This document shows, piece by piece, positions 2,861 to 64,000 of a stretch of 64,000 bases of DNA; positions within the stretch are counted from its first letter, which is position 1; each line of letters opens with the position of its first letter. A program made the position numbers and the translations under genes. The stretch covers positions 11,222,001 to 11,286,000 of the forward strand of contig JBHGNT010000011.1 of the NCBI GenBank assembly GCA_043228905.1, read 5' to 3'. The notes beneath the pieces were generated by a model. That model worked only from the letters and a program-made list of their open reading frames with translations. It searched no databases and had not been told where the DNA came from. Source of the stretch: Azolla caroliniana. Taxonomy: Eukaryota; Plantae; Polypodiophyta.

Positions 2861-2889
2861 TAAGAGAGGAAATGCCCAACAAGACCAAG

Positions 2890-29769: not shown

Positions 29770-32700
29770 TTATGTTTCTTCTTCAACATCATCATTAGAA
29801 GATTCCGTTGTATCATCATAGTTGTCCACATAATCACTATCTGAAGATGAATCAACTATGGCATTGTCAATGTCTTCATCCTCTTGATCTCCATCATCAT
29901 TTCCATATTCAGCATTGCAAGCCTCAATTGTAGTTTGTCCAGTATTTATCCTTCTTGTACTTGCAAATCTCGTGCAAACTCTTCTAATAGTGCTAGATCT
30001 TGATCCCACCAATCCTTCATCCACAATCATATTGGCAAACTTAGATCTACTTGGAGTAACCCGACCAATATGCATAGCCTCTACTTCCTCAAAATATGCT
30101 TGTGCGACTTGAGTATCAATATTGGTTGTTGATGGAGGCATTTCAACAGTCTTGTCAATGTCTATCTCATCAGGATTTACCTAAATCAAATAATATTTAC
30201 CAATTAACAAGGTTTGTTAATTAACCTACAAATGATTTTCTAAACATCAACTTTCAAGTGTCAAACATGAGTAAGAAAGATGTAGACCTGCATGAGTTTG
30301 AAAGCTTCGAATAAGCCTTAAGTTTTCTCTAACATATACTAATCTCTCCACTTGTTTCACCTTCAAACGGTGTCGTGAAGAAAACCATCCCTAGGCGGAA
30401 ACCGAGTTTAGCATGTGTAAACCGGCCCTTACACGCGAGCGCACTTTTCGTTGTAGAGTAAGTAGGTAGGTACAAGTCGGCTGAGGTGAAATCCCAGGTA
30501 GCACGCTTTCAATAGGGAGAGAATCGAACTGTATCTCTGTTCGAAAGGACAGAGAATTAATATGATGTAACGGGTGATAACGGCCTCCCTCCTTGGGCTA
30601 TAAAAGAGAGGGAGAGGAATGAAAAAGGGAGAGGCGCTAGAGAGGACGAGGTGCTGCCGGACTGGGACAGAGCGCTTCTTCTCTGCCACTCGCCATAGCC
30701 ATCCTCACGCAGGCTTTCGGGAGGCTGACTCTGCTCCGCGGAACGCCCGCGTGCTTCTGGCAGAGACTCCATCTCGCTCTTCTGTGTGGGTGTGTGAGCA
30801 GGCGTCGGTGTCCGCCTTGCCGGCCTGTTAGTTGTAACCGTCTTGATATTTATATACATTTATATACATACATGTTCATATACTCAGACTTCGAGTTGTC
30901 TCGTTTGCTGTGTTGTTGGACTATGATTCTTGTGTGCTCCCGTGTCAGTGCGTGTGCAAGTGCGTTTGTTGCCTTTCCGTTCTCCTCCTTCTCAGCTATT
31001 TCTCGGTCCAAGGCCCCGGTGGTCCCGCCTCGTTCTCCATGCACGCGCGTAACAACGCGAGAACGGTTCCTCCTTTTTGTATGTGCCAATGCATGTGCAT
31101 TCCAATTTCTTTCAGCAGCTCCAGAAGAGCAATCCTATGACACAAAGTATTAAGCAAACAATACATGTCATTGTAGAAGATTAATAAAATTGAAACATTA
31201 ATAAAAAAATGAGTTATAATACCTGAGACAATACTCTACAAGCTAATGACTGTAGCAAGGGCACATTGTCTCCATATCTTTCCCACCATGAAACAGGTTT
31301 ACATTTTGCAATGTGTGACTTTGATAGCTCATTGCTAAATCGGCCCACACCATTTCTATACATGTCAAATTGATCTTGCAAGATTTCACATTCATTTATA
31401 GAATATACTTTTTGAATATATGGAAGCCATCCATCCGTCATCTCTGCATTCATAATAGTTGGTTTATCTTTGGGCTTCCATAAAGGATGCAAAATATGTG
31501 CAACAATATGAATTGGCTTTTTGAACCACGACCAACGACAATCAAAACATTCCAAAACCTCTTTATATCTCCATTAACATTTGACAAACTTAAATCAAAA
31601 CTGGAAATCAGTTACTGAAATATGCATAATACAGACAACAACAATGATTCAAAGAAATGAAAAAGATGCAATAAACAACAATTGTACATACTACATAGTA
31701 CATAAAAATAATAATATTAGAATAGAAACATATTACCTGTCCTTGTGTAATGTGTCGTCTCTTGCTCCTCGTTCCAATGTGTCTCTAGCCCTCCTCATGA
31801 ACTCATAAAGTAAGCCCATTGTAGATCCTTCATGATCAGTTAGCCGCAAAACAGAAAATAGTGGACGCATAATCGAAATTACAATCATAATTGAAGGCAA
31901 AGTAGAGCTATCTTGCACAATGGACTTCACCTTGACAACATCTGGCCTTTTGGAGTCACTCTAATCCTCCCAATAGTTACTAACCACAGTTTGTTCTAGG
32001 GCTCTCCAAACTCTTGCCAGCCTCTCAAGGACAATAAGGATATAGCCAAATCGAGTGGCACTTGGCCTAAGGAGCACAAGAGATGAGTAGTTGCTGAAAA
32101 TTTTTCGTGCATTCCTTTTCTTGGTGAATAGTCTAACCACATAATTTGCTCTCTTGTGCACTCCACGAACCCAAGACAACTTCCCAATATCCTCTAGCAA
32201 TAAATCTAAACAATGTGATGCACAAGGAGTCCATACAAGGCCTGGGAATTTAGTCTCTAGAATGTGACCCATGCTAACACAATTAGATGCATTGTCAGTG
32301 ACAATTTGCACCACATTTTCTACTTTTACTTCATTTATTGTAGTTGATAGCATTTCAGCCAACCATGGACCGTCGACCCTTGTAGAAACACCACTACAAT
32401 CAATAGTTTTAAGGTACATAGTGCCATAACAACATGAGACCAAAATATTCACAAGTGCTCGCTTGCTAGTGTCAATCCATCCATCTGAAAGTATGGTAAC
32501 TCCATATTTTGGCCAAAGGGCTTTCACATTTTCCACTTTGTGTTGCACATTCAAATGCTCTTTCTTTAAATATTTAGCTCTTAAATCATTGTAGGTAATA
32601 CCACTATACTTTTCCCCAATATCAGAGAAAGCTAGCAACATGTTCCTCCAACATGACATTTTCAAAAGATTAAAAGATAGATTACCTTCCATAATGCATC

Positions 32701-33220
32701 TAACCAACATTGTGTTTGCATGGTCTTTCTTGATCAACATAGCAGCATTTGATCCTCTCCTTATCGTGCTTTGAGTGAGACCTTTTCTTCTTGAACCTTT
32801 TGTATCTTCAATATCAATAGGAATTTGGTCTATTGAATCCTTCTTAGATGAGGCACTTATGCTAGCCATTGAAGGTTGTGATTGGAACATTGAATCAACC
32901 ATTGAATCCACAATGCCTTCTTGAAGCTCAATTTGTTGTTCCATGGCTTCCACTTCTTTAATGCGTTTTAGCTTCTTGCGAGTCAATTCACTTTCTTGTG
33001 CTACTACCATAGCCTCTTGATATGCCTCTAGAGTTACTTGCACACACTTGTCTATACCTTCACCTTTAATTCCAGCAAGGTGAGCAACTAAACGTGTTAG
33101 TGTCCTAGACCCATGAAAATCACATAATATACAATCCCAATAATAGTTCCCAGATGACTTCCCAGCTTGTCTGTTCACACAATATTTATCCCATAAGGGG
33201 GATTCCTTGCGTGGCATAGT
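29770..33220 (-). pseudogene. hAT transposase pseudogene (spliced)
   Basis: BED finger (LWDKY...CILC...RLVAHLAG...C), TILSDGW, VVQIVTDNASN, WTPCASHCLDLLLEDI, PSATRF, premature TAG at 31961, HILHP, SWWERYG, and dimerisation-domain SSGAAERNW...HTKRRNR|LKVKQVERLVYV split by the 30371-31062 insertion. Acidic tail. Confidence 0.9.
30371..31062 (+). mobile_element. Solo LTR (692 bp), TGTCGTG-ended, inserted in the hAT transposase
   Basis: Starts TGTCGTG, ends CGCGAGA (degenerate CACGACA). 4-bp TSD ACGG (30367-30370 / 31063-31066). Removing it restores the KRRNR-LKVKQ reading frame. TATA ctataaaag at about 30598. Confidence 0.88.
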
Positions 33221-35993
33221 TGATTGAGTATGACAAGTTCTAGAGATTCGAAGTTGTCTTTTATATTTTCCTAGATTCATGAATTCACAATGTTAAATAT
33301 GTGAATAAGGAAATCATGTGATGTAACAATGTAGGAAGAGATTGTTTGAATGATAAGCATAACCAAATGACAAATCTGAATGGAAGCTAGCTACCTAAGC
33401 AAATGGCATTCCATCCATATTAAGAGGAAAAAATTATTATTCATTAGAAATGAATTATAAAGAGCATCATATGAAACTTTTACCTGTGATATAGGTGTGC
33501 TCTTGAATGAAGAGACTATTCTTTGATAAGCCACCACAAGCTATCAATGTCTCTATCAGCCACCAACATTGTTATATTAAAGAAGGGATAGACACACATA
33601 TAACCAAACCATACATGTAACATGTTGAACTATACAATAGTCTATTTATGCATATAAATTAATGGAATTTGTGTTTTGATGAATTCAATAGGGAAAACTC
33701 CAAACAATCTTGGATGGTGTCGTGGCGGTGATTTAACATCTCTACCGAATCACCGATAATTAGCTTTTATCAAATTAATAATCATTGAAGAATGCTTGAG
33801 AAGAGAGTAAGAGTGTGGTATATAGAACACATTACATCGATTGACCATAAAGCTTATCATCCCCCATAAAGCTTATTCTTCGATAAAACAAAGAAGACTA
33901 AACTAGGGAGAACTAAGAAACTACTTATGCCTCCAAGTTTTGCAATATTTCAACAGAAAACGAGTGTAGGGAGAAATAAAGAAGCAATTTTCTGCAATAA
34001 CGCCTTTCCATAGATTGAGGAGAAGGAAGAAGTAATCTATCCAATGATTAAAGAATTTTATTTAGGCTTTTGAACCGAATAATTGTGACTAAATGAGGGA
34101 GAAAGAAGAGATTATTTCTTCCTAATTTAGTCCAATTTACTGCTTAATCATACAAGATCAATGGAAAGAAAGGAAATTCCTCCTTACTTACATCTAAGTT
34201 TATATTCAAGCAATTTCTCCTCAATTATGAATGCAAATCAGTTAATCAACAGAACTTGAAGCATTTTGACAGGAAAAAAGTCACTAAATTAGGGAGAGGA
34301 ATTCCTAATTAAGCCCATCCAATATGCATGCCTTCCAAAGAATTAACATTTTCAAGAACATCAAAAACTAAACAGGTGAATAAAGAGATAATTTCCTACA
34401 ATATATATACAAATTGCAGGTAATGAATTGAAGATTAATGGAGTCACATCAGATAATTAGTAGACGGATGACTCTTCAAAATTTTCATTACATGTAGGGA
34501 GAAGGAAAAAAGCAATTTTTCTCCTAAATAAGTTCACTTTTAGATCAAAATCGATAGATAGAGGTCGTTCAACACACTAAATAGAAGTTCCAATAAGAAG
34601 AATCAAGCAGAAATATATCCCTCAATCGACAGGAATTGATCTCTCTTGAGTTAACCGCAAACTAGAAGGTTGTTAAATTTCAAGAATTTTTTAAGAAGAA
34701 AGAAGGAAATCAATGAAGGAGAATATACCTTGTAGTATGTACGTTGAGCTCTTAAAAGGGAAGAAAGGGAGGAGGAAGAAGAAGGGATTCATAGCTTCAT
34801 AGTTTGGATTTCGTTTAAGAAGCTTCCATGTACCTGTGTAAAAACCTAGTGTCTACAAAATGCAAACACTGCAACACTCGTTACAAAAACCCCCAAATTG
34901 TTTTTTTTCATTATTAAAAAAAGCCCTAGAAAATTCATTTTTAAATTATTTACAAATTTAGGCTTACAAAAAATGGTAGTTCCAAAAGGTAGAATACGTT
35001 TAGAATACGTGTGGGTATTCTAAAACGTACTCTATTTATAAAATACGCGTTTTTTAACAACAAAGCCCTGTTGAATGCGGGTCTCTAATGGACGTATTCA
35101 CACTGTCTCCTTTTTGTACACACTAGGTCTAGGCTATTTATGTCAATAGTGAGAAGGGCAGTTGCCCTAAGTTAGTTAGTATATAAACTGACTTTGTAAC
35201 CTAGTTTTGTCGGTTGATATAATTTAGTTCATCTTGTGCTCACCGTCTCTCTCTCTCTCTCTCTCTCTCTCTCGCGTTCTAAGTGGCTCATTGTTCTATG
35301 TCTCTATTGCCATCAATCTACCTTGATTGTATTTGCTTATTGATCTTCTTTCAGAAGAGTGTTGATTTGTTCCGCACTAGATGACCGCGTTGTCGTGAGA
35401 ATCCGTTGTCGTGCCTTTCGGCTCCGGATCGTTGCGTGAGTCGGGTGGGAACCGCTGGGGTTTTGGACTAGGAAGAGGAGAGTTTTAAGGCTAATAAGAA
35501 TATAAATATGTTGTAAGAAAGAGTTATAGCAAACTCGTGAATCCCACGAGTGTATTGTATTAGATTAATCACTATGAATATAAGAATATAAACTTCGGTT
35601 GAAAGAGAATGATATAGAATTCTCGTGAATCCCACGAGTATAGTTTATTAATTGGTGTTTTTTAGAAACATATCCAGTTTCCAAATATTTTTCACACACA
35701 ATTACATTGTGCTCCCCATCCTTATGTAGTGATGGGAGAGACTAAGCATAGCTACATGTTTTTTTTCTAATATGTTCATGCACACTAAATGTGCATGTGA
35801 TGCTTTTCTAATCCTTGCTTTTATTTGCTAAATATAGTGCTCATGCACGCTAGATGTGCATGAGTCACTTTTTAGTCGCTTGCGTTTTTCTATAAAATAT
35901 TCACGCACTCTAAAAATACATGATTTACCTTTTAATAAAGGTAGGCGCAAATAAAGCACTTATAGTTATTAAATCTATTTATAGAACACTAAA

Positions 35994-36092
35994 GATAAGG
36001 TAGTGTAATGGTAAAGTTGAGGTTTGGCTACGTGGAGGTACAAGGTTCGAATCTTGCCCTATGCACGTGATAAATATCTTGATATATTATTT
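35994..36092 (+). promoter_or_regulatory. tRNA-like Pol III internal promoter (A box + B box + T-run) inside the LTR; second copy at about 38681-38780
   Basis: TAGTGTAATGG (36001-36011) and GGTTCGAATC (36044-36053) at tRNA spacing, followed by a T-run at about 36089-36092. Confidence 0.6.
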
Positions 36093-36548
36093 TATTTATT
36101 TATATGTAATTAAATCGGTTATATTATTTTTACTTTTTCACGTAGTGTACGAAATACACTACGACACTCGCCCCCTCCGAACCCGCACATCCTCCGGTAT
36201 GTGCCGAAGTTGCCGATGCTCGTTGTCTCCCCTTCATCCTCCGTTTGTTCCGCTATGTCAACTTTGTCTCTCCATTTTGAGTAGACCCATTCTTTCCACC
36301 CGAACCATTGTCGCCATCCGATCCACCATATTCTTTGTTCTCTCTCGTCATATTCTTGGCCCTTGTCATTCGTGGTAGTGTCTTTTACTGGCCTCTTTCT
36401 TGTCTTCATCAACCTTGACTTTTTTCCGGATCGCTCTCGTCCGATCAACTTTCGGTTTGATCGGCTTCCGATCGGATTCGTATTCGGCCGAATCGGAATC
36501 GGTTGTTCGGTTTCGATTGAGTTGGTCTCCTTCCGGCTCGGTTTCGAT

Positions 36549-38054
36549 CTATCGGTTTCGGTTTCGGTTGGCTTTCTTTTCCTCGTTTTCACCAGCCTCG
36601 ACCGGTCTAACCTCCGATTGAGTCGGATTAGCTTCTTTCCAGAATTTGTCTCGTCCGATTGGCTTTCGGCTAGGTCGGCTTCCATCCATATTCGCGTTCG
36701 GCCAAGTCAGACTCGGTCGATCGGTTTTGACCGAGTTGACCCCTTTTCGGGTCGGCTTTCTTTCGGGTCGGAATCCCGTCCGGATCACCTTCCATCCGAA
36801 CCGGCTTCCGACTTTACCTTTCTTGCCGCCACCTCCCGTCTCTCCGGTCTCACGTTGGTTCTCGGACACAACCGCCGAAGTCTCTAGAATTAGTGGGTAG
36901 GAATCCTCGGTATTATCATCCTCTGTCATTTCAACCATAGCCTCCTTCTTGGCTATCTCTCCGTCGTATGAATCGGCTTCGACCTTTGTTTTCTCTCCAC
37001 CACCTTCCGTCTCTTCGGTCTCACGTTGCCTTTCGAACGCAACCGCCGGAGTCTCTGGAATCAGTGGCGGGGAAGTCTCGATATGGCAATCCGCCATTGA
37101 TTCGTCCATAGCCACCTCCGATTCGATTTCGTCTTTTGTGGCTACCTCCTTAATCACATCCGCTTCACACTCTTTATCTGCATCAATTATGCAAACATCT
37201 ATTATGCTTACCCCTTTTTGGCCCGATGTCTCGAGCACTTGTATCCCGAAATTTCCTTCTACACTTGAATTATCGGCCTTATCCTTCGCCATCGTTCTTT
37301 CACAAGACGAGTGGGTGTCTTGTTCCACTCTTTCTCCCGTGGTACCATCATGTTGTATTTCGGCCTTCATATTGGCTTCATCGTTTTTCCTCAATCGACC
37401 ATCCTTCATGGGCCATGTCGTTGTTGACGAGATTCTCAGCTTCCTTTCATCATGTCTTCGGCATACCCTTTGGACTTCGGCCCAATCTTCGGTAAGACCA
37501 TTCGTACCTTCATCGTCTTCGAGTTCGATCCCGATGTCCATCCTTTCTTTTCGATCGATCAATTTTACGAACATTAGGACTTTATCTTCTCCCACCAATC
37601 GTTGTTCCCGCTCCGAGAGTCGAGCAAAACGATGCTCGAACTCTAGGAATGCTTGTGTTGCACTTCGGTGGGTCTTCTCCGATGCCACCCATTCGTCGAA
37701 TTCTCGCCGATCTTGTCCCTTCGATCTCTTGTAATCATATGACTCTCGTAAAGCTTCTTCGAATGATCCCCATGTCGAGTTTTGTTGCCGTATCTTGTGG
37801 ATTCTCTCTTGTAGCTCATCCGTGGCTACCCGACTGAAGGATATCACTTGCAATCCTTCCGGTATCCCACATCGCATCATCTCCCCTTTGTAGTCACGTA
37901 GATAGCGTGACACATCGTTTCCGTTGAATTGTCCGTTTCGTTGTACGAGCCGCTTTACTGCCCCCGTGATCTCCGACATCACTCGTTGTTCTTGTAGCAT
38001 CCGCTCGAACATCATCATCATCGTTATGCTCATTGCCTCTTGTTGATTCTCCAT
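36549..38054 (-). CDS. Gag-like protein with long acidic then basic low-complexity tail (about 500 aa)
   Basis: Uninterrupted ORF starting just after the PBS. Its N-terminal 150 aa align with the gag at 63553 onwards (MFERMLQEQR...LVQRN..FNG.DVSRYL..YK.EM.RC). Internal repeat PLIPETPAV / PLILETSAV. Confidence 0.8.
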   Translation of the reverse strand: MENQQEAMSITMMMMFERMLQEQRVMSEITGAVKRLVQRNGQFNGNDVSRYLRDYKGEMMRCGIPEGLQVISFSRVATDELQERIHKIRQQNSTWGSFEEALRESYDYKRSKGQDRREFDEWVASEKTHRSATQAFLEFEHRFARLSEREQRLVGEDKVLMFVKLIDRKERMDIGIELEDDEGTNGLTEDWAEVQRVCRRHDERKLRISSTTTWPMKDGRLRKNDEANMKAEIQHDGTTGERVEQDTHSSCERTMAKDKADNSSVEGNFGIQVLETSGQKGVSIIDVCIIDADKECEADVIKEVATKDEIESEVAMDESMADCHIETSPPLIPETPAVAFERQRETEETEGGGEKTKVEADSYDGEIAKKEAMVEMTEDDNTEDSYPLILETSAVVSENQRETGETGGGGKKGKVGSRFGWKVIRTGFRPERKPTRKGVNSVKTDRPSLTWPNANMDGSRPSRKPIGRDKFWKEANPTQSEVRPVEAGENEEKKANRNRNR

Positions 38055-38070
38055 CTCCTTGCCACCCGTC

Positions 38071-38088
38071 TTCACGTCGGGTTCACCA
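38071..38088 (-). promoter_or_regulatory. Primer-binding site complementary to the 3' 18 nt of cytosolic tRNA-Trp
   Basis: Plus strand ttcacgtcgggttcacca matches the recalled 3' end of plant tRNA-Trp(CCA) including CCA. It lies 5 nt from the LTR, and an identical PBS occurs at 63519-63536. Confidence 0.85.
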
Positions 38089-41000
38089 ACTTGTGTCGTG
38101 CCTTTCGGCTCCGGATCGTTGCGTGAGTCGGGTGGGAACCGCTGGGGTTTTGGACTAGGAAGAGGAGAGTTTTAAGGCTAATAAGAATATAAATATGTTG
38201 TAAGAAAGAGTTATAGCAAACTCGTGAATCCCACGAGTGTATTGTATTAGATTAATCAATATGAATATAAGAATATAAACTTCGGTTGAAAGAGAATGAT
38301 ATAGAATTCTCGTGAATCCCACGAGTATAGTTTATTAATTGGTGTTTTTTAGAAACATATCCAGTTTCCAAATATTTTTCACACACAATTACATTGTGCT
38401 CCCCATCCTTATGTAGTGATGGGAGAGACTAAGCATAGCTACATGTTTTTTTTCTAATATGTTCATGCACACTAAATGTGCATGTGATGCTTTTCTAATC
38501 CTTGCTTTTATTTGCTAAATATAGTGCTCATGCACGCTAGATGTGCATGAGTCACTTTTTAGTCGCTTGCGTTTTTCTATAAAATATTCACGCACTCTAA
38601 AAATACATGATTTACCTTTTAATAAAGGTAGGCGCAAATAAAGCACTTATAGTTATTAAATCTATTTATAGAACACTAAAGATAAGGTAGTGTAATGGTA
38701 AAGTTGAGGTTTGGCTACGTGGAGGTACAAGGTTCGAATCTTGCCCTATGCACGTGATAAATATCTTGATATATTATTTTATTTATTTATATGTAATTAA
38801 ATCGGTTATATTATTTTTACTTTTTCACGTAGTGTACGAAATACACTACGACACCGTCACTATGTGCGGATCGTGAGACGGAACCGCCGAGGTTATGGAC
38901 TGGAAGGAATTAGTACACACATGCACAACACAAGCAAGATTCACATATAAGATAAGTAGATGAGAGGAAACATTCGTTTATTGCAAAATAAATCGATTCT
39001 TTATAAACTTAGAATCATGTTACAATGGATTGGATATGAAAATGAGAGATAAATCTTTTAAAGAAAGGAGCTAACATCCATATAAGGAGTGGTCCAATAT
39101 GAATATGAGAGATTATTCTTGAAAGGAAGGAGCCAACAACCATGTAAGGAGTAGTCTGATATCAATATGAGAGAGATTTCTTCCCCCAAGGAATGAGAGA
39201 GAGAAGAAGAAAAGAAAAGAAAAAACTAGAGGGAAAAAATGGAACTTATATCGAGCTCTTTGTTGATCCCCCTTCTCAATGTTACTTTGCATGTCCACTT
39301 TTAGTTGCATGGCCTTGGCTTTTAGTTGCATGCGACCGTCCGTATAATTCGGCCAAATGACCCAATCATCCATAAAGTTTAGCCCGTGCGCAATCCGTAC
39401 GTGCATCGCAATCAAACCGTAGACGTGTCCGCGCGCAAAAGTCCTGACCCATCCGTGCGCTCATCCGTCAGAGCGTCCCAGGAGGCCGTGCACGTGCGCG
39501 TTCGTCCGAAACATCCACACGGCCATGCACACTTACACTCGAAACTTGCACATGCGCATATGTCCGAAAACATCCACACGGCCGTGCACACGTGCGTACG
39601 CCTGAAATGTGCACACCACATAGTGTAGCCCAAGTCACCTTGAACATTCTGTCCTCCACACGTTAATATAATGAATAGGTTTTGGCTTTCTATATATATT
39701 GGGGAATCCAATGTTATCCTATCTACGTGGGATATCTCACAGTTTTGTTTTTTTCCCCTTTTCTCTTCAAACTTCTCACTCACATAACGTGATGCTTGTT
39801 TATCCATTTCATGCGTAGGAAAATACGTTATGAAGCTCTTGAAGACATCTATCTTTCCATATCAATACATTAAGCTAATCTTAAATAATTATTTTACTAG
39901 TTTTTATATCGTGTGGGAAAAACCACATGACAACGTCTCAAACATCTGGTATCAGAACTTGAGGCTCTTTCCATTCTGCTGTTGTAGTCTATCTAGTTTC
40001 TATCAGCAACACTTCTTCTGTACATCGTGAAGATGTCATCTCGGTTGGCAACTCTCTACAATATCATTTTCGTGAAGAGAAACGTTGACAAAATCTGCAC
40101 TCCACTATTCTAAATCACCATTGAAGTGAGCCAACTGGCTGCACTTCACTCCTGTGATTGTCGCCACTCAGAGTGAGATTTTGCTTCACAAGCTCTGCCT
40201 CAGTGGAACTACATTGGATTAGACAACAATCGAATAGGTCACCTCACGTTAGTCACTCGCTTGTCGTAATCACTCGTAGTTGTCTGGGCTCCAAGAACAA
40301 TCCCCTTCCGTGCTTCATTCGGCTAGAAAACATTAAGAAAGATTGGTTAAATTTGTTCTTCTCATTGTCGTAGTCACTTGAAGCATAATCATGATCACTG
40401 ATGATGTTGTTGGGAAGACCATGGTGCCAAAATACTTCGCGCATAATGATACATGTGGTGTCTTCACTAGTGATCTCTTTAGTACAGGGAAAGAAATGCG
40501 CCATCTTAGTATATCGATCAACCATTGTTAAGATGACGTTGAAGCCCTTAGAATCTGGAAGATTTGTGATAAAATCCAAAGAAATGGATTGCCATGGCTT
40601 GCTTGGGATCGGTAATGGCTCCAATAAACCATATGGATGATGTCGGGGCATCTTTGCCCTACAACAAGTATCACATGTCCGAACATAGTCTTCGACAAAT
40701 CTTCGTATATGGGGCCACCAGAATGATTGGGTTACTAAATCCAATGTTTTAGTACTACCAAAATGTCTAGCTATGTATGTACCACGACAATTTTGTATGA
40801 CCCAAAGGCAAGATGGACCATTGGGAACATAATAAAGATTTTTAAATAAGACTAATCCATCATGCCATTTGAATTGCCAATAATCCGTACTTGGTTGTTG
40901 TGACTGTGAACAGGATGCTCAAGTGGGATCAATCCGATATAGGATATCTTGAGCAAAGACATATGTCTTCAAATTTTGACGTATTATATCAATAATGTTG

Positions 41001-43321
41001 GAATCCAATGGAGTATCAAAAACCAAAGTTGCTTGCAATTGTGTCAGACCCAGGATTACCTGTTTTTGATTATCGAAGATCGGATCACTAGGACAAGGTG
41101 CTAGATATGAGCGTCGTGATAATGCATCTGTCTTCCCTTGCTGCTTACCCGAACGATATGTAATCTTGAAGTCAAAATGAGTGAGAAACTGGACTCGTGG
41201 AGCTTGTCGTCTAATTAATACACAAGCATTATGGAAATAGACAAGATTCTTGTGATCACTGAATACAATGACTTGATGAGGAGATCCTTGTAGGAAATGC
41301 CTCCATTGTGTAAAAGATTCCACTATAGCTAATAATTCCTTGTCATGTACCTCGTTGTTGATTTCAGCAATGTCAAATTTGCACGTGGAAAGCCACAAGA
41401 TTTAGCTTCTTATTGTCGCCTTGGTGTGACAAAATACTACCGAGTGTGAAATCCAATGAATCTACTTCAATGATAAATGGTTTTTGTGGATCAACATGAG
41501 CTAGAATAGGAGCTGATGTAATGCTTTCTTTAGATCCACAAAAGTAGTATCTGCTGCATTAGTCCAAAAAAATGATTGCCCATTCTTTGTGAGTTGTGTG
41601 AGGGGCAAAATAAGCTTCGAGAAGTCTTGTAGAAACTTGCGATAAAAATTCGCGAATCCTAAAAAACATTGCATGTCTCGCAATGATCGTGGAGTCTACC
41701 ACTCTAACACTGTTTGGACCTTAGCTAGATCCATAGAGATTCCTTCAGAGGAGATGACATAGCCTAGAAATTCCACTTGTTTACAATCAAAACTACACTT
41801 TTCGAGTTTTGCATAAAGAACATGATCTCGTAGTCGTTTTAGTACTAATCATACATGAGAATCATGCTCCTCCTATGTTCTTGAATAAATTAATAGATCA
41901 TCCAAGTAGATTATCAAACAAATGTTCAAAGATATTGAAATATATCATTTGCCATGTGTTGGAAGACTGTTGGTGCACCATTAATCCTTTCTAAAAAGAC
42001 TCGAGATAAGGGGAAGTGCATACCTATTCCTGATGGTGAACTTATTAAAGCCATGATAATCTAGGACTAGACGAAGTGATCCATCCTTTTTCTTTACAAA
42101 CAAAATAGGTGCGATGGCTGGAGATTTTGAGTGTCGAATGAACACATTTGCCAAGTTTTCCTTTATGTAGGCTCAAAGAACTTCAAGCTCGGTTGGTGAC
42201 AAGTTGTAGATCGGTCCCCATGGTGGATCTTTTCCTAGTGGTAAATCAATGGGACAATCATACGATCGATGTTGAGGAAGAGTAATTGCTTTTAGCTTAT
42301 AAAAAACGTCGACATAATGGTGATACTTCTTTGGTAGTTGGATTGTTGACTCCTCCTTAATGATACTAGAAGGTTTCACTGATACTACAAATACAAACAT
42401 TGGTTCCTTTCGTCCTTCCTCATGCAATTGATGTAGTAAAATGGTTGAAATTCTATGAGTGGATGCTTGGGGTTGACGATACCAGACTTCTCTTGTTCTC
42501 CAATCGATTTCGGGATTGTGTAATTCGAACCATGGCAACCCCAAAATAATTGGATGCTTTGAACTACTAATTATATTAATTGATAGGGAAAAGTACTAGG
42601 ATACCCCTGGAAGTTCTAAATTTACCAGAATGCCCCTGGAAGTTCTAAATTTACCAAACTACCCCTATGTCCAAAAAAATACACTTTATAAAGTAATTAT
42701 ACACTCAAATCTACAAGTCCTATTTACCATAATACCCTTCAAACATAAATTTCTTTACTTAAACAACAGTGTGCGAATACATTAAGAAATATCCTACGTT
42801 AACTATTGTTTTTTGTATCTTCTCATTTTCAATGGTTAAGTCAATACAAGTCATCAGATCGTGACAATGATGGTAGAGATCATTCGAAAAGGTATTATGT
42901 GGTTACCAGCTTTGGCACATTTGCTACTATCATGTCTATGTTACATTTACAAATAAGACCATAGTAGCTATTAATTGCCATAGAATTTCTTCATAGCCAC
43001 GAGCATAAGCAATTCCCACAGTTGTTAACCCCGTATCGCTGTTGGGGACACCTGAGCTCTCTAGCAGTGATGAGCATGGCAAGGTGGCACAAGAAAGAAC
43101 GCATGGGATCTCATCCGCTGCGAGGATTTATTAGGCATACTCAAAGTTGTTGGGGCATGACCACATCCATAGCTCAACAGAGTAAGAAGCCCCCTCCTGT
43201 CTCCTTCTTCTTTCTTTCATTCATTTATTCATTCATTCTTTCTTCATTGATTTGATTAATCCATCATGTCTCCAGGCACGTACGCTGTACATTCAAAAAT
43301 TCGAGGGGCAGGGCAGGATCA

Positions 43322-45300
43322 ATGACCATGCCATCCCGCCGCCTGTTGTTGTCGATGGTGATGATGGTCGCCATCACTATTGCCTTCATGGTTAACCCCT
43401 CCCCCTGCGCTTACTAGAACGTCACCACCCTCCTCTGAAACCACCCTACCTGCAGGTCCTTCAACACCTTGTTCTCCAGCTATGGCGTTGACAGGAACCG
43501 CACGCTCCCTATACGCAACGCTCGGCCACAACCGAGCTTAGAATCATACACAGAAAATGGGAAATAAAGAACGACACGAAGAAGAGACAAGTACGCAGGA
43601 TGTTTACGTGGAAAACCCAAACTAAGGGAAAAACCACGGCAGCCCACAGGCTGCAAACTATCACTATGTTAGAATGTACAACAGTGAGTTCACGGAGGCA
43701 ACGACCTCGTGCTCACGATCCTCGCCACAGGCGGTGGTTACAACAGAGGCAACGACCTCTTTCTCTCTCTCTCTCTCTCTCTCTGTACACAGTTACGCGC
43801 TCTCTCTCTCCTTGCACCAACAAGAATGACAACAACCACATCAAAAGGTTTGCCCTAAGTCATATTTATACTAATATGACTTTGCGGCTATTTACAAATA
43901 TAGCCACGATGGACTCTCAGAGACATATTCACAAATATGTCTCTTCATCCGGAGAGCACTCCTCACCGGGTCTGCACCATCCGGTCCTCCGTAGCCGAGT
44001 ACTCCTCATCCGGTTCTCACCGGGTTAGTACCATCCGGCTCTCCGTAGCCGGGTACTCCTCATCCGGTTCTCACCGGGTCTGCACCATCCGGCTCTTCGT
44101 AGCCGGGTACTCCTCATCCGGTTTTGGCCTCGGTCGAGTTTGTTCATCGACACTGTTCTTCTCCCTTTCCATCCAGAGGGACCTGTCTCCCAACAGGCGT
44201 CGCCTCTGCCATCAATAGTCGCACCACAATCACTGTGCTCTGCCCCCCCAATGCCGCCACCGATGCGTTCTTCTCCGCCTCCCGCCTCTCCGACGACCGT
44301 GAGACTGTCTTCAACGTCCTAAGCTTCCATGTCCTGCTCGATTACTCTGATCCCTCTCTGATGGCTCTGCAATCATCACCACGCTCTTCTAGACCACTGG
44401 CCTCTCGGCCGGACTCAACGGCTTCCTCAACCTGACCACCCTAAGTAATGGAACCACGCTCCTCCGCTTTGCATCTGCCCCTCCCGAATCTCCGCCACTG
44501 GCTTCTGTGTTGGGCTCTCTAGAGAGCTTCCCTTTCAACATAAGAACACTCTCCATCTCAGTTGTGCTTACACCCATGGGAGCTTCCCTTCCACCACCAT
44601 TGCCAGTCAATGTCACATACGTCCTTGCTCAATCAGGGGCAGGGAATTTATCCACCTTTGTCTCGTTGCTAGTATCATCTAGGGTTGATAAGATCTTCCA
44701 ATTCCATGATTCATCACTAGGATTGACAATCTTTGCACCCACCAACAGTGCATTCGATCGCATGTATGGATCGATGGTGTATGCCAGCCTCTCCATGACT
44801 CGGAGGGTCTCGCTTCTCGAGTTCCATGGGACCGCTTCATTTTTCCCCACACAAGAGTTGTTGGGTTCCGCAGGGTCCCAGCCCACCCTAGCTACCACAT
44901 CAGGCAATGTTGATTATAAGGTCTCTTCGACTCGATCGACAAAGACTGGTGTAGTTTCAATCATAACCAATGGCAATGGAAACCCTGTCCCGATAATGGG
45001 AACGCTCTACTCTAGCAATCCCGTGTCGATCTTCTCCATTGATTCGTTGCTCCTTCTTGCTGAAATCTTTTCATTGATTGTAGCATCGCCACCTTTGTCC
45101 ATAACATTAGCCCCAAGACCTAGTGGACTTGCATTGTCTCCGCCTGACTCAAGTTCGGCTATTTTGCAAGTGATGTCTCTGGCATCGGCTTCGGCCCCGG
45201 CAATGCAAACTCCTAAATTATCGAGACCTGCATCATCACCACCAAGTTATTCGCCCCTTACTCCACCTGCAGACAAACATGGCCTCGACAGTGTTTCACA
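43322..45300 (+). pseudogene. Captured fasciclin-like arabinogalactan protein (two FAS1 domains, FLA1/2/8/10-type) pseudogene
   Basis: Signal peptide MTMPSRRLLLSMVMMVAITIAF, *NVTTLL*, INSRTTITVLCPPNAA, FHVLLDY, TTLF*TTG..GFLNLT, second domain GLTIFAPTNSAF...LEFHG, Pro/Ser/Ala tail. Premature TAG/TGA codons, a frameshift and an LTR insertion. Confidence 0.88.
43489..44195 (-). mobile_element. Solo LTR (707 bp), Copia-like, inside the FLA pseudogene
   Basis: TG...CA ends with 5-bp TSD GGCGT (43484-43488 / 44196-44200). Motif tttacgtggaaaaccc...gggaaaaaccacgg; about three 60-bp tandem units at 43945-44123. Confidence 0.9.
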
Positions 45301-46065
45301 ACTAAAAGTTGTTGGGGCAATTCCATTTTCATCGCCTCCTCCCTTCGTCCCAGGCATATCTCCTTCTTCTTTAGGGGCAATATCGACAGAAAACGAAATC
45401 TTTTCTTGAAATATCTGAGCAATGCATACAGGGAGGATTAAGCCATTCTCAGCGTAGCTATTTCCAGTACGGAGAGGAATATGAAACGCTTCAATTTCTT
45501 CTCCTTGAGAACAACCTTGTTTACCATGAAAGGATCTTACTTTATCTTACAATTCAGCTTCTCCTCATATAGTTCACCATTTACTTCTGCATTGCGTTTG
45601 AAGGGTATTCTGGTAAATAGGGCTTGTAGATTTGAGTGTATAATTACTTTATAAAGTGTATATTTTTGGACATAGGGGTAGTTTGGTAAATTTGGAACTT
45701 TCAGGGGTATTCTGGTAAATAGACGAACTTCCAAGGGTATCTTGGTACTTTCCCCTAAATGATATTGCCCATGCCAAATTATCTAGGACAACATGAACCA
45801 GTTTGGACTCTTTTACGATATTTCCAGAAGCAATGGGGTGACCATCAATGACTACTACAAAAGCTAGGCAAGGAAGCTTTCTTAGGGATATCTGATGAAC
45901 TTGAGGCAAACTTTTTATCCATGAAACAAGAATGAGCTCCGGTTTCTAAGAGTGTTAAGACATGTACTGGAGGGTTACTTATAGTACTAACTTTTACTTG
46001 AGCTAAGAACACCTTGCTAACTTGCTTAGAAGGAATGGAACCACAAATGGGTTGCACAGATCTAG

Positions 46066-46781
46066 GGTTGTCCAACCAAACGATTCATATTTTCGGCTGG
46101 AACTTCCTCTACATTTCCAGATTCATAATGTCTTCCATGCCTCTCTCCTTGAACCTCATCATCCATCCACTATTCCTGGAAGACACTCTCCACTCTCCAC
46201 CTCCACCTCCAATCGAGCTTTCCACAGGTGAGGAGTATGAGGTTGAGAAGATTCTAGACTCTTGTCGACATTGACGACAACTTCAATATTTGGTCCTCTG
46301 GAAAGGGTATCCCATTTTCGAGGCAACTTGAGAACCAACCAACACTTGGAAAATGCATCGGATGTTGTTCATGCATTTCATGACCAATATCCACAAAACT
46401 GGGGAGGCATCTTAAGGGCCGGCCTTAGTGAAAGGATAGTGTCATGGACATGACAATAGTCATGTCATGAATTCGAACTCTTGGCCTATTGTATTATAAT
46501 CAAATGATGTGTTTTAACCAACACATTCAATACATGGTCATGTTACTTTAGTAGATTATTAGTAGATTATCTATTCCATATGCTAGGAGATGCTTCCAGA
46601 AGCTTGTGCATGAAAATGAGTCTCTACTGCATGAAACTACATTTAGAGCCCACAAACATGTATAAATACAGGGGATTCACCTTGACCATATAATTCAGGG
46701 GGTTTACCTTGACCATATGGTCAAGGTGAAAAACACCAATTATAGAATCCAATATTTTGCTTGTCTATCTCTTGCTTCCTT

Positions 46782-46821
<40 letters not shown>

Positions 46822-46890: not shown

Positions 46891-47512
46891 ACATGCAATT
46901 TTGAGCATGCATGCTACACGAGCGTAACCAACCAGCAACAGAACATGGGTGGGCGGACACATTACCGGTGGCCCGATGACAAGTTTCCTATGGCCAATGA
47001 ATGGGGTGGGTGTTGCGCACACGCACAGACACACAGACACAGACACACATGCATATTGATTTGGTAGTGGCAGGTAGGCCGCGTGTTCCCCACCCGCCAA
47101 CCGGCCGGCCATTTTCCGGCTCCGGCGGCTACCGTGACACGTCAAGATGTGATTGTGATGTCTCGTCCGGCCTCCTTCCTTTTTGCCTTCCCTTCCTTTT
47201 GTCCTGTTTACGATGGGATGGGGATGGGAGACGCCATGCCGTTTTGGCGCGAAGCAGAAGCAGAAGCAGAAGCAGAAGCATTTCCCATGAAGGATCAGAG
47301 TAATTGTATGTATGTATGGCCATAGCCCGCGCTTGGCTTGCTCGATAACGCAGAAGAAGAGAAGGGAGAACGAAGCTTCGAAGGACGGACGGAAAGCAAG
47401 CACGCGGAACTGGAAGAACTAGACGAAGCAGCAGCAGCAGCATAAGTAGTAGTAGTAGTAGTAGTAGTAGAAAAAGAAGAAGAAGCAGAAGCAGAAGGTA
47501 AAATAGCGGGTA

Positions 47513-47628
47513 ATGGATAAAAAACAGCGAAATGGATTAGAGGTGACACGCATCGGCAGTCTGTACCAAGGTCCATGGGAGAAGAAGTACTGGAGTAGCT
47601 CTCGAGTATGACTTCCTTCTCCCTCTCC

Positions 47629-47673
<45 letters not shown>

Positions 47674-58810: not shown

Positions 58811-59019
58811 TTGAGAATTATTGTGAATGCCTTCTTAAAGACTCTTTGCTTAATGTTAATAATCCTAGGGATACACAAACTTGATTTGAAAATATTTGTA
58901 TCTCGAGAATTATTTTGAGAATTATTGTGAATGCCTTCTTAAAGACTCTTTGCTTAATGTTAATAATCCTAGGGATACACAAACTTGATTTGAAAATATT
59001 TGTATCTCGAGAATTATTT
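58811..59019. repeat. Tandem duplication, 104-bp period, apparently identical copies
   Basis: ttgagaattattgtgaatgcc...tctcgagaattattt at 58811 and 58915. Confidence 0.95.
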
Positions 59020-59980
59020 CTATACAAGGCAAGTTGGTAACTTACAATGTTTTACATTCATAGAAAACCATAAACTCTTGTTCAAGCTAACTTCTTATAG
59101 AATAACTTATAAGTGGAAGTGACCATAAGTGGAAGAGACTGATTTGAATTGATTTGAACAAGATTGAAAATGGTCCTAAATTTAAGCGTGGATGATAATT
59201 TCATATGCAAACTGTTCTAGATATCATTGAATTATCAAGAACTCCATTAAAACCTAGAGGGTCACAAAACTATCTTGAATGGAATAGAAGTGTTTGCATA
59301 TATGTGGAATCAAGCGTGGAGACGAAAGGTTGTTTCAACTAAGTTTTCCCTTTTAGCCATAACCTAACTATCTATGTTAGACTGACCTAGAATGTAAACC
59401 GATGGTTCCTTATTTTTCTTTTCCCAACACTACCACAACCATTCTTTCCACCATAGCCATGAAGACCATACAATCCACCAAACGCTTCGTCTACACTTTG
59501 TACCACAAAAACCGATTTTCATGGCCACATGTCTTCATCATTCTCTTGGGTCTTTCCATGGTGTGGGCCCAAAGCTTCGATGATTGTCTTCATGCCTTCA
59601 ATTAGACTGTCTCAACTCTTCAGTTGCCCAAGTCTCAAGTTCTACGGTGTCATATCTTGATTGTTCTTGATGTTACGTCTACCACTTGGACGATGTATTT
59701 TCTAGCTCATTAGCTGTCTTTTACAACTTCTTCTTTTTGTATTGTTCCGGGCGTAACAACTTTATTTTGAACTTCTTCAACTTTCACTTCTTCACATGGG
59801 TGGGTAAGTAAATTTTTATTTAGATGCGAAGCTTCTGAAATGGTATTCGTCTCATCGTGCGGACCCCATCTATTTTGTTCATCCGTCTCCATTTTTTTAA
59901 ATTCTGAATTTGTACCAAATGCTCGTCGTTACATTCTCTGGACAATCCCTTGTAATTCCCGTTATCTCATCCTTGAATTC

Positions 59981-62750
59981 TATAAAAGTAAATATGCGAA
60001 AGCTAAGACAACCGGCTCAACCGGATAGCAACAAAATACAGACACAGGTTTAATGGAAACCTTACACGGGAGAGACAGAGAGAGCATAACACAACTCTAT
60101 TTCAAAATAATAATTCTCTGTACTACTCTGTACATACAATGTGCTCAATGAGCACTTTTATACAAGTCCTTACATGGACTGACATAATTATTGACATGTA
60201 CTTCAATGCTCATACGAGCGACTGACACTGACTCCCGAAAATATGCCTACGTACTAGGCTAGATCCGTAGGCCTCTAACGGCCTACCGGTTACAATCCGG
60301 TTCGTCTCTCCGATCCGGCTCTTGGTTCTAGATACCGATCCAGACACCGATCCGGTTCTTTGTTCCGAACTCCGATCCGGCTCTGGCTTATTCAGCCAAT
60401 CTGGATCCGGTTGAGCTTGTCTGCTCAACAGTCCCTGTCAAGCTCAACTTGAGATTGGATCGTAGTGTCAGTGTTAGTGGTAGCCGATCCTCTCCTCAGG
60501 CTCTTCATGGCATCCTCCTGCCTTGCTTGCGCTCCTCGAACCGTCCGGTTTCGCTTTCCACAACCCGTCCAGTCCCGCGCATGTTGACCTTCTCGGTCGG
60601 CTTGTTTGCTCATAAGGCCCATCTCAGCTCCTTTGTTGTTGTGACTTCATCGCTTCTCGACCCGTCGGTTCCTCCGTGTCAGTGTCGACTTCAACTGCCT
60701 TCTTGTCCATTTGGCTTTTAGTTGATCTGGCTCCTCCGAATCAAGCACTGCTTCCGAATCGGGTGACTCCGACTCATTCCAGCACTTCTCTGAATTGGTT
60801 GTCTCCAATTCTTCCTCAATCTCCAGACCCTTCATGACATCGGCCCATGTCCGTGTCTCAGTCTTTTCGGCTTTGCCTCCCCCTTTTTCGGTTGGCCCCA
60901 ACTTGGGTTCTTCGTTTCGGTGGCTCCCCCTATGTACGGTCTCAACTTCTTCAGCCGTCCCATGCACTCCGACTTCTTCAGTTGGGCCGAAGTCGAGATG
61001 GGTTTCTAACTTGGCTTTACGATCGTCTTTCTCATTCCTCCTTTCACTCCTCCCCCTCAAGTTCCGCATATCGAGGTACTGCGCACCCAATGCACCGGAA
61101 AATTGCCACAACTTTAGTGCACCTCGGTGTGCTTAGTCCGAACGTGAAAGATGGGGTTCTTTGCCAACTTGATGCTGCTGAGGTTGTCGTAATAGATCAT
61201 CATCGGATCTAACACCTCCACTCCTAGATCCTTCAGAAGTTTCTTGAGCCATATGGCTTCGCATGTCGCGACAACCGCTCCTCGATACTCGGCCTCGGTG
61301 CTTGACAGTGCTACTATCGGCTGTTTCTTAATGCTCTAGGTGACTGCGGCGCTTCCAAGTGAGAACACATATCTGGATGTGAACCTAGGATCGCCGACAT
61401 TTCTGGCCCAATCGGCATCTGTGTAGCCGACAAGCTGTCCGGCTACACCGGTCCGATACAACAACCCCCTATCCTTAGTGCTGCTTACGTACCTCAATAT
61501 TCGGTGTGTGCACTAAAGGTGTTCCATGATTGGATGCGTCATGAATTGACTAATCAATCCAACCAGATAACTGAGGTCCGACCGGGTGATGGTCAAATAT
61601 ATAAGGCCTCCGACGATCTGTTGGAACCGTTTCGGGTCGCATGCCGTTCTAGAGCTGGGGCGAAGCTTCACATTCCGGTCCAGAGGGGTCGAGATGGATT
61701 TGCATTCTGTCATGCCGAATTTGAAGAGCATACTCAACACATAATGCTGCTGTCTAATCAGTATGCCTTCGGGGTTGCAGATCACTTCGATCCCAAGGAA
61801 GTAATGAAGGTCACCGAGATCCTTCATATCAAACGATGCTATAAGTTGGGATTTGACGCAACCGATTTCGTCCAAGTCGGCGCCGGTGATGACTAAATCA
61901 ACATAAAGTAAAATACTAACCGGCCTATTCCAACCTTGCCGAATGAAGAGAGAAGAGTTCGATTTCGATGGAGCAAACCCCATCCGACGCAGTCTCTGCG
62001 TGATGTTCGCGTTCCAGGCACGTGGGGCTTGCTTGAGTCCGTAGAGGGACTTCTTCAATTGGCACACAACCAATGTGTTCACTTCGGACTGAAATCCGGG
62101 GGGCCGAACCATATACACATGTGCCTCAAGATCACCTTGCAGGAACACATTTTTCACATCCATCTGATGTAGATGCCACCCCTTCGCCACTGCCACCGCA
62201 AGCAAGACATAGATGGTCATCATCTTCACGACGGACGCGAACATCTCATCATAATCAATGCATGTTGCTGCGCGTAGCCCTTGGCCACTAATTGGGCCTT
62301 GTATTGGTTGATGGAGCCGTCAGTGTTGTATTTGACCTTGTATACCCACCAACAACCGATCGACTACACTCCTTCGGTACGTCCACTAAGTCCTGCCTCT
62401 CATTTTCCGTGAGTGCATGCATCTCTTCCTCCATAGCAGCACACCAATTTGCGTCCTTTGCCGCTTCTGCTTAGTTCTCTGGCTGACGCACTATTGCCAC
62501 CTTCACCATGTACGCATAATGATGCGCCATATACTAATTGTACCCATAGCTCTTCTTGGGGTTTTGCTGGTGGGTGGATCAACACAATTCTTGATTCGCC
62601 GATTTTGCGGCCCTCTTGGCCAACACAAACTTCTCTTTCGTAGGTCCATCTCTGTTTTATCCGGAGTTGAATTCGCTGAGGTCCGACTCATCTATGCCAA
62701 CATCGTACTCCGACATCTTCTTCTTCCTCTTTTCTTTGCCCGTGAACCGT
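59981..62750 (-). mobile_element. Ty1/copia retrotransposon, 3' half (RT, RNase H, extra region, 3' LTR about 59981-60430), degenerate
   Basis: HQMDVKNVFLQG, LKKSLYGLKQAPRAW, LLYVD, MKDLGDLHYFLGIEV, GYTDADW, LSSTEAEY, NPIFH.RTKH. LTR starts TGTTG on minus at 60430. Cut at 62750 by the Trp-primed element. Confidence 0.9.
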
Positions 62751-64000
62751 TGTCGTAGTGTAGGTTGCACACTATGTGGAAATTATATTTTTGTTCCTCC
62801 GGATAGAGAATGGAGTGCTCGGTGAGAACCGGAAGAAAATGGCATACTGGCAAGGAAGAGCCGGATAAAGAGACATAAATGTAAAAAAAAAAAGGGAAAT
62901 ACTCACTACTGCTCAAGGCGTGATTCGAACTCTGCACCTCCACGTTGACAAACCCCAACCTTACCATTACATTAACTTATCTTAAGTGTTTTAAATATAG
63001 ATTTAATACGTATAAGACCTTTATTTATGCATACCTTTATTAAAAGGTAAATCGTGTATTTTTTAATATATGAAAAAGAAAAAACACGAGACACTAAAAA
63101 TAACTCATGCACATCTAGCGTGCATGAGCCCTATACTTAGGAAATAAAAAAGCATCACATGCACATTTAGTGGACATGAACACTTTTTGTAAAAAAAAAA
63201 ACATGAAGCCATGCTTAGCTCTTCTTTCCTTATATAAGGAGGAGAGAAATATGTAAAGGGTTGTTGATTATTTGGATTAAGTATTAATTAATACAAAAAT
63301 TATTCGTGGGATTCACGATTTATACATCTACTTCTCTCTTAACACCCTAAGTACCAATTAATATAGTATACTCGTGTGATTCACGAGTTTCTTATCTTTC
63401 TCTTTGCTATTTACTCATAATTAATCTCTATCTCACGAACTTCTTTCTCCTAGTCCAAGACCTCTGTGGTTCCCACCCGACTCACGCAACGATCCGGAGC
63501 CGAAAGGCACGACACAGTTGGTGAACCCGACGTGAAGACGGGTGGCAAGGAGATGGAGGCTCAACAAGCTAACAATATGATGGCGATGTTCGAACGGATG
63601 CTTCAAGAACAACGCACGATGTCAGAGATTTCGGCATCAGTAGAGCGGCTCGTGCAACGCAACGAGCAATTTAATGGTAAGGATGTGTCGCGATATTTGC
63701 AGAACTACAAGGCGGAGATGCTCCGGTGCCGGGCTTCGGAAGGACTGCAAGTGACATCCTTTAACCGGGTGGCGACCGACGGGCTTCAAGGGAGTATCCA
63801 CGGGTTGGAACAACAAAATCCGACGTGGGAAGCATTCGAAGAGGCGTTAAAGACCACGTTTGCCATCGAGGACTCCTCCAAGGCAACGCGGAGGGGATTC
63901 GAGGATTGGGTGGAAACGTCAGGTAAGGGGCTGAAGGTCCTCGAAGTGTTTTCGACATTCGAAAGTCGGTTCGGGAGGTTGTCCGCGAGAGATCAAACTA
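62751..64000 (+). mobile_element. Second tRNA-Trp-primed LTR retrotransposon (5' LTR 62751-63514, PBS 63519-63536, gag), runs off the right edge
   Basis: TGTCGT...ACGACA LTR whose last ~47 bp are identical to the U5 end of the 35407 element. PBS tggtgaacccgacgtgaa. Left flank CCGT. Confidence 0.92.
63553..64000 (+). CDS. Gag N-terminus (open to the window end)
   Basis: MEAQQANNMMAMFERMLQEQRTMSEISASVERLVQRNEQFNGKDVSRYLQNYKAEMLRC... with no stop; homologous to the 36549-38054 ORF. Confidence 0.85.
   Translation, partial: MEAQQANNMMAMFERMLQEQRTMSEISASVERLVQRNEQFNGKDVSRYLQNYKAEMLRCRASEGLQVTSFNRVATDGLQGSIHGLEQQNPTWEAFEEALKTTFAIEDSSKATRRGFEDWVETSGKGLKVLEVFSTFESRFGRLSARDQT

What the first reader, a model, noticed from the sequence alone, without database searches (positions are those of the whole stretch)
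30367..62756. Four independent TGTCGT-ended LTR insertions all sit at a 4-bp CpG-centred target
Seen: solo LTR 30371-31062 has TSD ACGG (= CCGT); element 35407-38853 has TSD CCGT; solo LTR 35391-39932 has flanks GCGT/ACGT; the element at 62751 has left flank CCGT (right flank outside the window). The hosts differ (hAT exon, two LTRs, a Copia) and the LTRs belong to at least three subfamilies. The other solo LTRs have 5-bp TSDs (GGGGT, GGCGT). Established: plant LTR elements mostly make 5-bp TSDs with weak sequence preference, while 4-bp sequence-biased TSDs are known from Drosophila errantiviruses. Inference: an integrase lineage that recognises NCGN, possibly methylated CpG, steering copies into other TEs and away from genes in a CpG-poor genome.
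Basis: partly seen in the sequence, partly recalled or inferred. Interest (0 to 1): 0.8.

Follow-up and report, generated by a model that had tools for sequence, protein, structure and literature searches.

The report
Fern Phygy-type retrotransposons target CG
These jumping genes, in what is likely a fern, almost always insert at a four-letter site with CG in the middle, a habit already published for the moss 'Phygy' group they most likely belong to, so this is mainly a new host and a sharper motif, and nothing here shows that they read DNA methylation.

Summary
All four insertions duplicate 4 bp around a CG, the right flank of the 62751 element is CCGT, and empty sites hold the 4-mer once. 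Genome-wide, 1235 of 1416 host-facing LTR ends are followed by NCG and 90 more by TG, CA or TA, against 2.7% background CpG. Of the 1235, 1180 fit VCGB; control families show no bias. The pattern is already published: Neumann et al. 2019 list Phygy with 4-bp NCGN TSDs and a tRNA-Trp PBS. These elements share both and show no chromodomain or extra RNase H; a tree with moss Phygy could not be built. New here: a likely fern host, three families, the VCGB refinement. CG availability explains most, not all, of the lean towards repeats; methyl-CG reading is untested. No earlier scan note on this pattern turned up.

The parts
30367..30370 (.). left TSD ACGG of solo LTR, family C
   Evidence: empty site skips 692+4 bp in 4 of 4 runs
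30371..31062 (+). solo LTR, family C, inside the last coding exon of a hAT transposase on the - strand
   Evidence: full family members carry the same PBS and a related pol
31063..31066 (.). right TSD ACGG
35387..35390 (.). left TSD GCGT of solo LTR, family D, near the end of a Met-PBS LTR
35391..39932 (-). solo LTR, family D, split after its first 16 bases (on the + strand) by element A
   Evidence: orientation from PBS and PPT flanks of family copies
35403..35406 (.). left TSD CCGT of element A
35407..36166 (-). 3' LTR of element A (family A/B)
36167..36178 (-). polypurine tract of element A
   Evidence: same tract before 3' LTRs of many copies
36549..38171 (-). gag-like reading frame of element A (stop to stop); no pol, so A is non-autonomous
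   Evidence: 54% to the gag of B over 216 aa, no RT hit
38073..38088 (-). PBS of element A, complementary to the 3' end of tRNA-Trp
38094..38853 (-). 5' LTR of element A
38854..38857 (.). right TSD CCGT of element A
39933..39936 (.). right TSD of family D solo LTR, ACGT (one base changed from GCGT)
62747..62750 (.). left TSD CCGT of element B, inside a Copia element; the right copy CCGT lies outside the window (L031:7965-7968)
62751..63514 (+). 5' LTR of element B (family A/B)
63519..63534 (+). PBS of element B, complementary to the 3' end of tRNA-Trp
63454..64000 (+). start of the gag-protease frame of element B (stop to stop); RT, RNase H and integrase follow outside the window in an overlapping frame

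Best explanation
These are Ty3/gypsy retrotransposons, likely of the Phygy lineage and likely in a fern, that insert at 4-bp sites with a central CG (V-C-G-B), most likely because their integrase itself reads that short sequence. Shown: the 4-bp duplication, the CG centre, avoidance of T before and A after the CG, the tRNA-Trp primer site, three LTR families in one RT clade, and a non-autonomous gag-only derivative (element A) with the same target habit. Inferred: the integrase cuts the two strands 4 bp apart, centred on the CG step, and reads the bases directly; the motif is palindromic, has no strong signal beyond the four bases, and is shared by families whose LTRs are otherwise unrelated. 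Inferred: copies gather in other transposons mainly because gene regions here are CG-poor and transposons are CG-rich, with selection or chromatin adding a smaller part. Inferred: after insertion the duplicated CGs are methylated and decay to TG or CA.
For: Counts: 2260 LTR 3' ends, 844 followed by the PBS, 1235 by NCG, 1325 by NYR, 1180 by VCGB; VCGB is only 46% of background NCGN, and TCGA, the commonest background 4-mer (10.8%), occurs in 0 of 58 sampled sites. Family C: 17 of 28 half-sites CG, 11 TG/CA, none other. Family D: 24 CG, 12 TG/CA, 1 other of 37 (hand count, one locus with unclear ends left out). Controls: 1 of 38 (45 printed, 7 PPT flanks that my filter missed removed) and 1 of 28. 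Positions beyond the TSD are near background. Phygy is listed with 4 bp (100%), NCGN and tRNA-Trp (81%). The PBS matches a tRNA-Trp(CCA) gene of this genome. Pfam finds RT, RNase H, H2C2 and rve, no chromodomain and no extra RNase H. Families B, C and D group together (SH-aLRT 90) inside a clade with Riccia and Adiantum elements (99), apart from chromodomain-type and animal Gypsy (quick tree). A precedent for direct reading: ZAM integrase binds CGCGCg in vitro (PMC2527525 abstract). Flank CpG density equals that beside random CpGs (14.3 vs 13.1 per 300 bp, p = 0.18).
Against: No Physcomitrium-named sequence came up among the listed hits (52 of 52 and 120 of 261 shown), so the defining phylogenetic test for Phygy was not run. 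Element B (7214 bp) and two of four family C elements (7.1 and 7.3 kb) are shorter than the published Phygy range of 7656-9968 bp. TatI also has 4-bp TSDs and a tRNA-Trp PBS and is excluded only by a Pfam blank for the extra RNase H. Insertion flanks hit repeats more often than CG-matched controls: 45 of 58 vs 193 of 400 (p = 3e-5; library biased towards flanks of these families) and 31 of 58 vs 224 of 700 with a less biased library, just above the cluster-bootstrap range of 14-50%. On C1, 78 of 96 LTR ends lie in the central region, against 71% expected from CpG density (p = 0.02). So sequence alone does not explain everything. No biochemical test of the integrase exists here.
Confidence: 0.8

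Rival explanations
1. The integrase, or a partner, prefers methylated CG, which actively sends copies into silenced repeats and away from unmethylated promoters.
For: Residual excess of repeat flanks over CG-matched controls and of central-region insertions; TSD CGs decay to TG/CA in older families, so they are likely methylated at least after insertion.
Against: The excess shrinks with region-matched controls: 53% vs 42% (218 of 514) and 78% vs 70% (361 of 514). Flanks show less CpG decay (O/E 0.91) than the background (0.66). Pfam finds no methyl-binding or chromodomain in the integrase. ZAM targets CGCG in Drosophila, which has next to no CpG methylation (recalled). Selection against genic insertions would give the same remainder.
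Confidence: 0.12
2. Same target habit, but a separate sister lineage of Phygy (or an aRH-less TatI relative) that reached NCGN by shared ancestry or convergence.
For: No moss reference in my tree; lengths partly below the Phygy range; Phygy was defined as a species-specific clade.
Against: TSD length, NCGN, tRNA-Trp PBS and lack of extra domains all coincide with Phygy and with no other listed lineage; relatives at 65-70% identity occur in a liverwort and a fern, and Phygy is reported by name in a liverwort genome (PMC12885004 passages).
Confidence: 0.12
3. The CG comes from the element's own ends or from local base composition rather than from the target.
For: The LTR ends and the PBS are CG-rich, and flanks are CpG-richer than the genome (0.048 vs 0.027 per base).
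Against: Empty sites carry the CG-centred 4-mer once; outer TSD bases vary between sites; control families show 1 of 38 and 1 of 28.
Confidence: 0.01

Closest known systems
Phygy (non-chromovirus Ty3/gypsy of Physcomitrella patens; Neumann et al. 2019, PMC6317226; passages and supplementary file 3 read)
   Same: 4-bp TSD, NCGN preference, tRNA-Trp PBS, no extra domain, no extra ORF; Phygy nests into other elements in the moss too (PMC6911290 passages).
   Different: Likely fern host instead of moss; slightly shorter elements (7.1-8.9 kb seen); motif resolved here to VCGB; gag-only non-autonomous copies such as element A; tree placement with moss Phygy not tested.
TatI (PMC6317226 supplementary file 3)
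   Same: 4-bp TSD and tRNA-Trp PBS.
   Different: TatI carries an extra archaeal-type RNase H in 100% of copies; Pfam finds none here; no NCGN is listed for TatI.
Selgy
   Same: Non-chromovirus, 4-bp TSD, overlapping gag and pol frames.
   Different: tRNA-Ala PBS, 4.4-6.7 kb, no NCGN listed.
ZAM/Tirant errantiviruses of Drosophila (PMC2527525 abstract; PMC5408687 passages)
   Same: Works alike: short palindromic CG-centred target, integrase shown to bind it in ZAM.
   Different: Insect elements with a CGCG consensus; errantiviruses have three frames, and B has no third frame between integrase and PPT; not the same clade by host or structure.
Fungal non-chromovirus Ty3/gypsy, Ylt1-like (PMC2864245 passages)
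   Same: The nearest non-plant relatives are fungal (35-44% identity in RT-RNase H) and enclose the plant clade in the tree.
   Different: No labelled Ylt1 sequence was on hand, so the name is inferred; their TSDs were not examined.

Membership tests
Phygy | 4-bp TSD | tested here: met
   17 of 25 candidate solo LTRs identical at 4 bp, 0 at 5 bp; empty sites
Phygy | NCGN target preference | tested here: met
   1235 of 1416
Phygy | tRNA-Trp PBS | tested here: met
   PBS in 844 ends; matches a tRNA-Trp(CCA) gene of this genome; same PBS in families C and D
Phygy | No chromodomain, no extra RNase H, no extra ORF | tested here: met
   Pfam scan of the three long frames of B; ORF list
Phygy | Length 7656-9968 bp (observed range in the moss) | tested here: inconclusive
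   B 7214 bp; family C 7.1, 7.3, 7.8, 7.8 kb; one family D about 8.9 kb
Phygy | RT/RH/INT phylogeny groups with P. patens Phygy | not testable with these tools
   No REXdb; no Physcomitrium-named hit among listed rows; supplement sequences cut at 400 letters
TatI | Extra archaeal-type RNase H | tested here: not met
   No second RNase H family hit at E <= 0.001
Selgy | tRNA-Ala PBS | tested here: not met
   PBS is tRNA-Trp
Chromoviruses | Chromodomain at the integrase C-terminus | tested here: not met
   separate branch
Errantiviruses (ZAM/Tirant) | Third (env) reading frame | tested here: not met
   Integrase frame runs up to the PPT and 3' LTR
Ylt1-like fungal Ty3/gypsy | Phylogenetic grouping with Ylt1 | not testable with these tools
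   Groups with unlabelled fungal elements; no Ylt1 reference

The most novel reading that the evidence does not exclude
An old non-seed-plant lineage, nested among fungal elements, has an integrase that reads methylated CG in a VCGB context and so aims itself at silenced repeats without a chromodomain: a methylation-guided integrase.
Probability: 0.12. Interest if true: 0.75.

Novelty: new member of a known kind. Interest (0 to 1): 0.27.

Why it matters
It extends the one plant LTR lineage known to choose its target by sequence from a moss to a likely fern, with more than 1400 host-facing ends of one family to work with, and sharpens NCGN to VCGB. In a genome whose genes are CG-poor, such a preference is a simple way for an element to avoid genes without a chromodomain. 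The large copy number and the visible empty sites in related samples make the open question (base reading or methyl reading) directly testable. The core pattern itself is already in print.

Tried and rejected
Programmed read-through: element B has a stop in the integrase zinc-binding region, but it is absent from all 61 other places compared, so it is damage in this copy. A longer palindromic motif: positions 5-16 are near background in 105 half-sites. TSDs in other hosts: the viral collection gave nothing; 80 metagenome loci were mostly collapsed internal regions, many with the same PBS, and gave no clean TSD pair, so NCGN was not shown for liverwort, Chara or fungal relatives. A moss reference: not found among homologues or in the supplement of PMC7466625, whose cells are cut. 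Ylt1 TSD: not given in the passages seen. GingerRoot: 6-bp TSD, no base-specific target, not a match. The ESM Atlas gave only 'Streptophyta' for a host gene. The careful tree did not finish; the quick tree is used. Literature: 'Phygy' gives 18 papers, 'Phygy'+'fern' 3, seen as listings only; 'NCGN' gave only unrelated papers among 30 of 93 listed; two searches showed no title on this lineage in ferns. Later REXdb releases, subscription papers and unseen supplements may already list fern Phygy. Rows dropped: L124, L127, L050, L147 before the TSD tallies (mutated PBS, degenerate PPT, adjacent internal DNA, tandem duplicate); L097 in family D; 7 PPT flanks in control E.
Full report
Observation. 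The four sites are as described, with small corrections. The solo LTR 30371-31062 has ACGG on both sides and ends GCGAGA; most of its family ends GCGACA. Element A, 35407-38853, lies on the minus strand with CCGT on both sides and LTRs 99.87% alike. It sits inside the family D solo LTR 35391-39932, flanked by GCGT and ACGT. Element B starts at 62751, runs 7214 bp, and its right flank is CCGT. Empty sites fix the duplication at 4 bp: a joint skipping 692+4 bp in 4 of 4 runs, a single 4-mer site in other family D LTRs, CCGT once in 5 of 11 paralogous Copia copies, and GCGT once in the two closest of 11 paralogues of the LTR that hosts D.

Genome-wide test. An 18-base pattern for the 3' end of the A/B LTR occurs 2260 times. 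Of these, 844 are followed by the PBS, leaving 1416 that mostly face host DNA (some are 5' LTRs with a mutated PBS, so the fractions are lower bounds). NCG follows in 1235 (87%) and NYR in 1325 (94%). Background CpG is 0.027 per base in 200 kb sampled along C1. VCGB accounts for 1180 of the 1235 but only 46% of background NCGN. In 58 sampled sites ACGT leads with 18 and none begins with T. Beyond the four bases the flanks are near background. Older families agree: C has 17 CG and 11 TG/CA of 28 half-sites; D has 24 CG, 12 TG/CA and 1 other of 37 (hand count). Pairs such as ATGT/ACAT and ACGT/ATGT are what CpG deamination after insertion would leave; one CTGG/CTGG pair (L080) could be a true non-CG target. 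Two control families from the window show 1 of 38 and 1 of 28 CG at that position and 5-bp TSDs.

What the elements are. B encodes gag-protease and, in an overlapping frame, RT, RNase H and integrase; Pfam finds no chromodomain and no second RNase H. It carries a stop in the integrase zinc-binding region that no relative shares. A keeps a gag-like frame and no pol. All three families use the PBS TGGTGAACCCGACGTG, complementary to a tRNA-Trp(CCA) gene of this genome, and have a normal PPT. Full C and D elements align to the RT frame of B at 57-59% over its longest stretches and to its integrase at 59-68%. Named homologues come from Riccia (up to 70%), Adiantum (69%), Chara and fungi. In a quick tree B, C and D fall in one clade with Riccia and Adiantum elements (SH-aLRT 99), inside a wider group with fungal and Chara elements (100), apart from chromodomain-bearing and animal Gypsy rows. 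An ABC-transporter exon of the window has its 4 named hits in Adiantum and Ceratopteris, so the host is likely a fern; one earlier AI note on this genome said moss.

Comparison with print. Neumann et al. 2019 (PMC6317226; passages and supplementary file 3 read) state that Phygy elements are the exception among plant LTR retrotransposons in preferring NCGN, and list 186 elements with 4-bp TSDs (100%), tRNA-Trp PBS (81%) and no extra domain. Jedlicka et al. (PMC6911290, passages; author name recalled) report 4-bp TSDs and nesting of Phygy into Tcn1. A liverwort genome paper names Phygy (PMC12885004, passages). Every feature I could test fits Phygy except that lengths run slightly short. The defining tree test could not be run for lack of a moss reference. 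TatI shares TSD length and primer but has an extra RNase H. My searches showed no paper on Phygy in ferns (listings only), which is weak evidence of absence.

Mechanism. Shown: a 4-bp staggered duplication centred on CG with a palindromic VCGB bias, shared by families with unrelated LTR interiors and by a non-autonomous derivative. Inferred: the integrase reads this directly. ZAM integrase binds its CGCGCg target in vitro (PMC2527525, abstract). From recall, foamy virus integrase also makes a 4-bp duplication and bends the target at a central pyrimidine-purine step; it is the closest solved structure by sequence. Flexibility alone does not explain the pattern, since TG, CA and TA centres are rare (90 of 1416) and mostly look like decay.

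Steering. Gene regions of the window hold 0.010-0.016 CpG per base; element A, element B and the Copia hold 0.057-0.077. Flanks have 14.3 CpG per 300 bp against 8.0 in random windows but 13.1 beside random CpGs (p = 0.18). On C1, 78 of 96 LTR ends lie in the central half, against 50% expected by length and 71% by CpG density (p = 0.02; only 20 sampled segments, and paired LTRs counted twice). Flanks match repeats in 45 of 58 cases against 193 of 400 CG-matched controls; with a less biased library 31 of 58 against 224 of 700, and against 218 of 514 in region-matched controls. So most of the lean towards repeats follows from CG supply, and a remainder is open to selection, chromatin or methylation. 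Nothing here measures methylation before insertion.

Verdict. Real and strong, but already known for Phygy. The additions are a likely fern host, three families, the VCGB motif and evidence that CG supply accounts for much of the gene avoidance. Novelty: new member of a known kind. Interest 0.27.

Noticed in passing
window 35407-38853: Element A is a gag-only, non-autonomous derivative with near-identical LTRs; many genome copies have LTR pairs 2.3-2.9 kb apart beside about 6.5 kb apart for full elements.
   Followed up: partly
window 14124-14587; L314-L342: The GGGGT solo LTR belongs to a family whose 3' LTRs are preceded by a conserved non-purine tract instead of a PPT; this looks like the PPT-less family of earlier notes on this genome.
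   Followed up: no
L130, L152, L027, L045: The lineage inserts into itself, including the ACGT inside its own PBS and into its own or family C LTRs; 10 of 58 flanks are own-lineage DNA, not more than CG-matched controls (p = 0.30).
   Followed up: partly
L146-L148, L164, L136-L137; G000:C1:20866982-20872495: Tandem arrays of elements sharing LTRs and elements with an extra LTR occur in family A/B.
   Followed up: no
L365:44-1521: Three tRNA-Trp genes about 700 bp apart on C16.
   Followed up: no
window 29500-35000: Multi-copy hAT transposase gene with introns on the - strand; its C-terminal HTKRRNR motif is cut by the family C solo LTR.
   Followed up: partly
window 1-17000: Several decayed copies of a LINE-like element, repeated in pieces.
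   Followed up: no
window 17900-22100 and 44393-45409: ABC-transporter (ABCA-like) exons and a fasciclin-like frame; the latter lies inside an inverted repeat pair 42584-42744 / 45596-45757, which may be a DNA transposon carrying a gene piece.
   Followed up: no
window 39947-42595: A Met-type PBS on the + strand is followed by Gypsy pol fragments on the - strand; orientation suggests a nested or rearranged element.
   Followed up: no
L195, L200, L223: More distant relatives (56-64% identity) in metagenome contigs keep the tRNA-Trp PBS and show NCGN beside the few LTR ends visible.
   Followed up: partly
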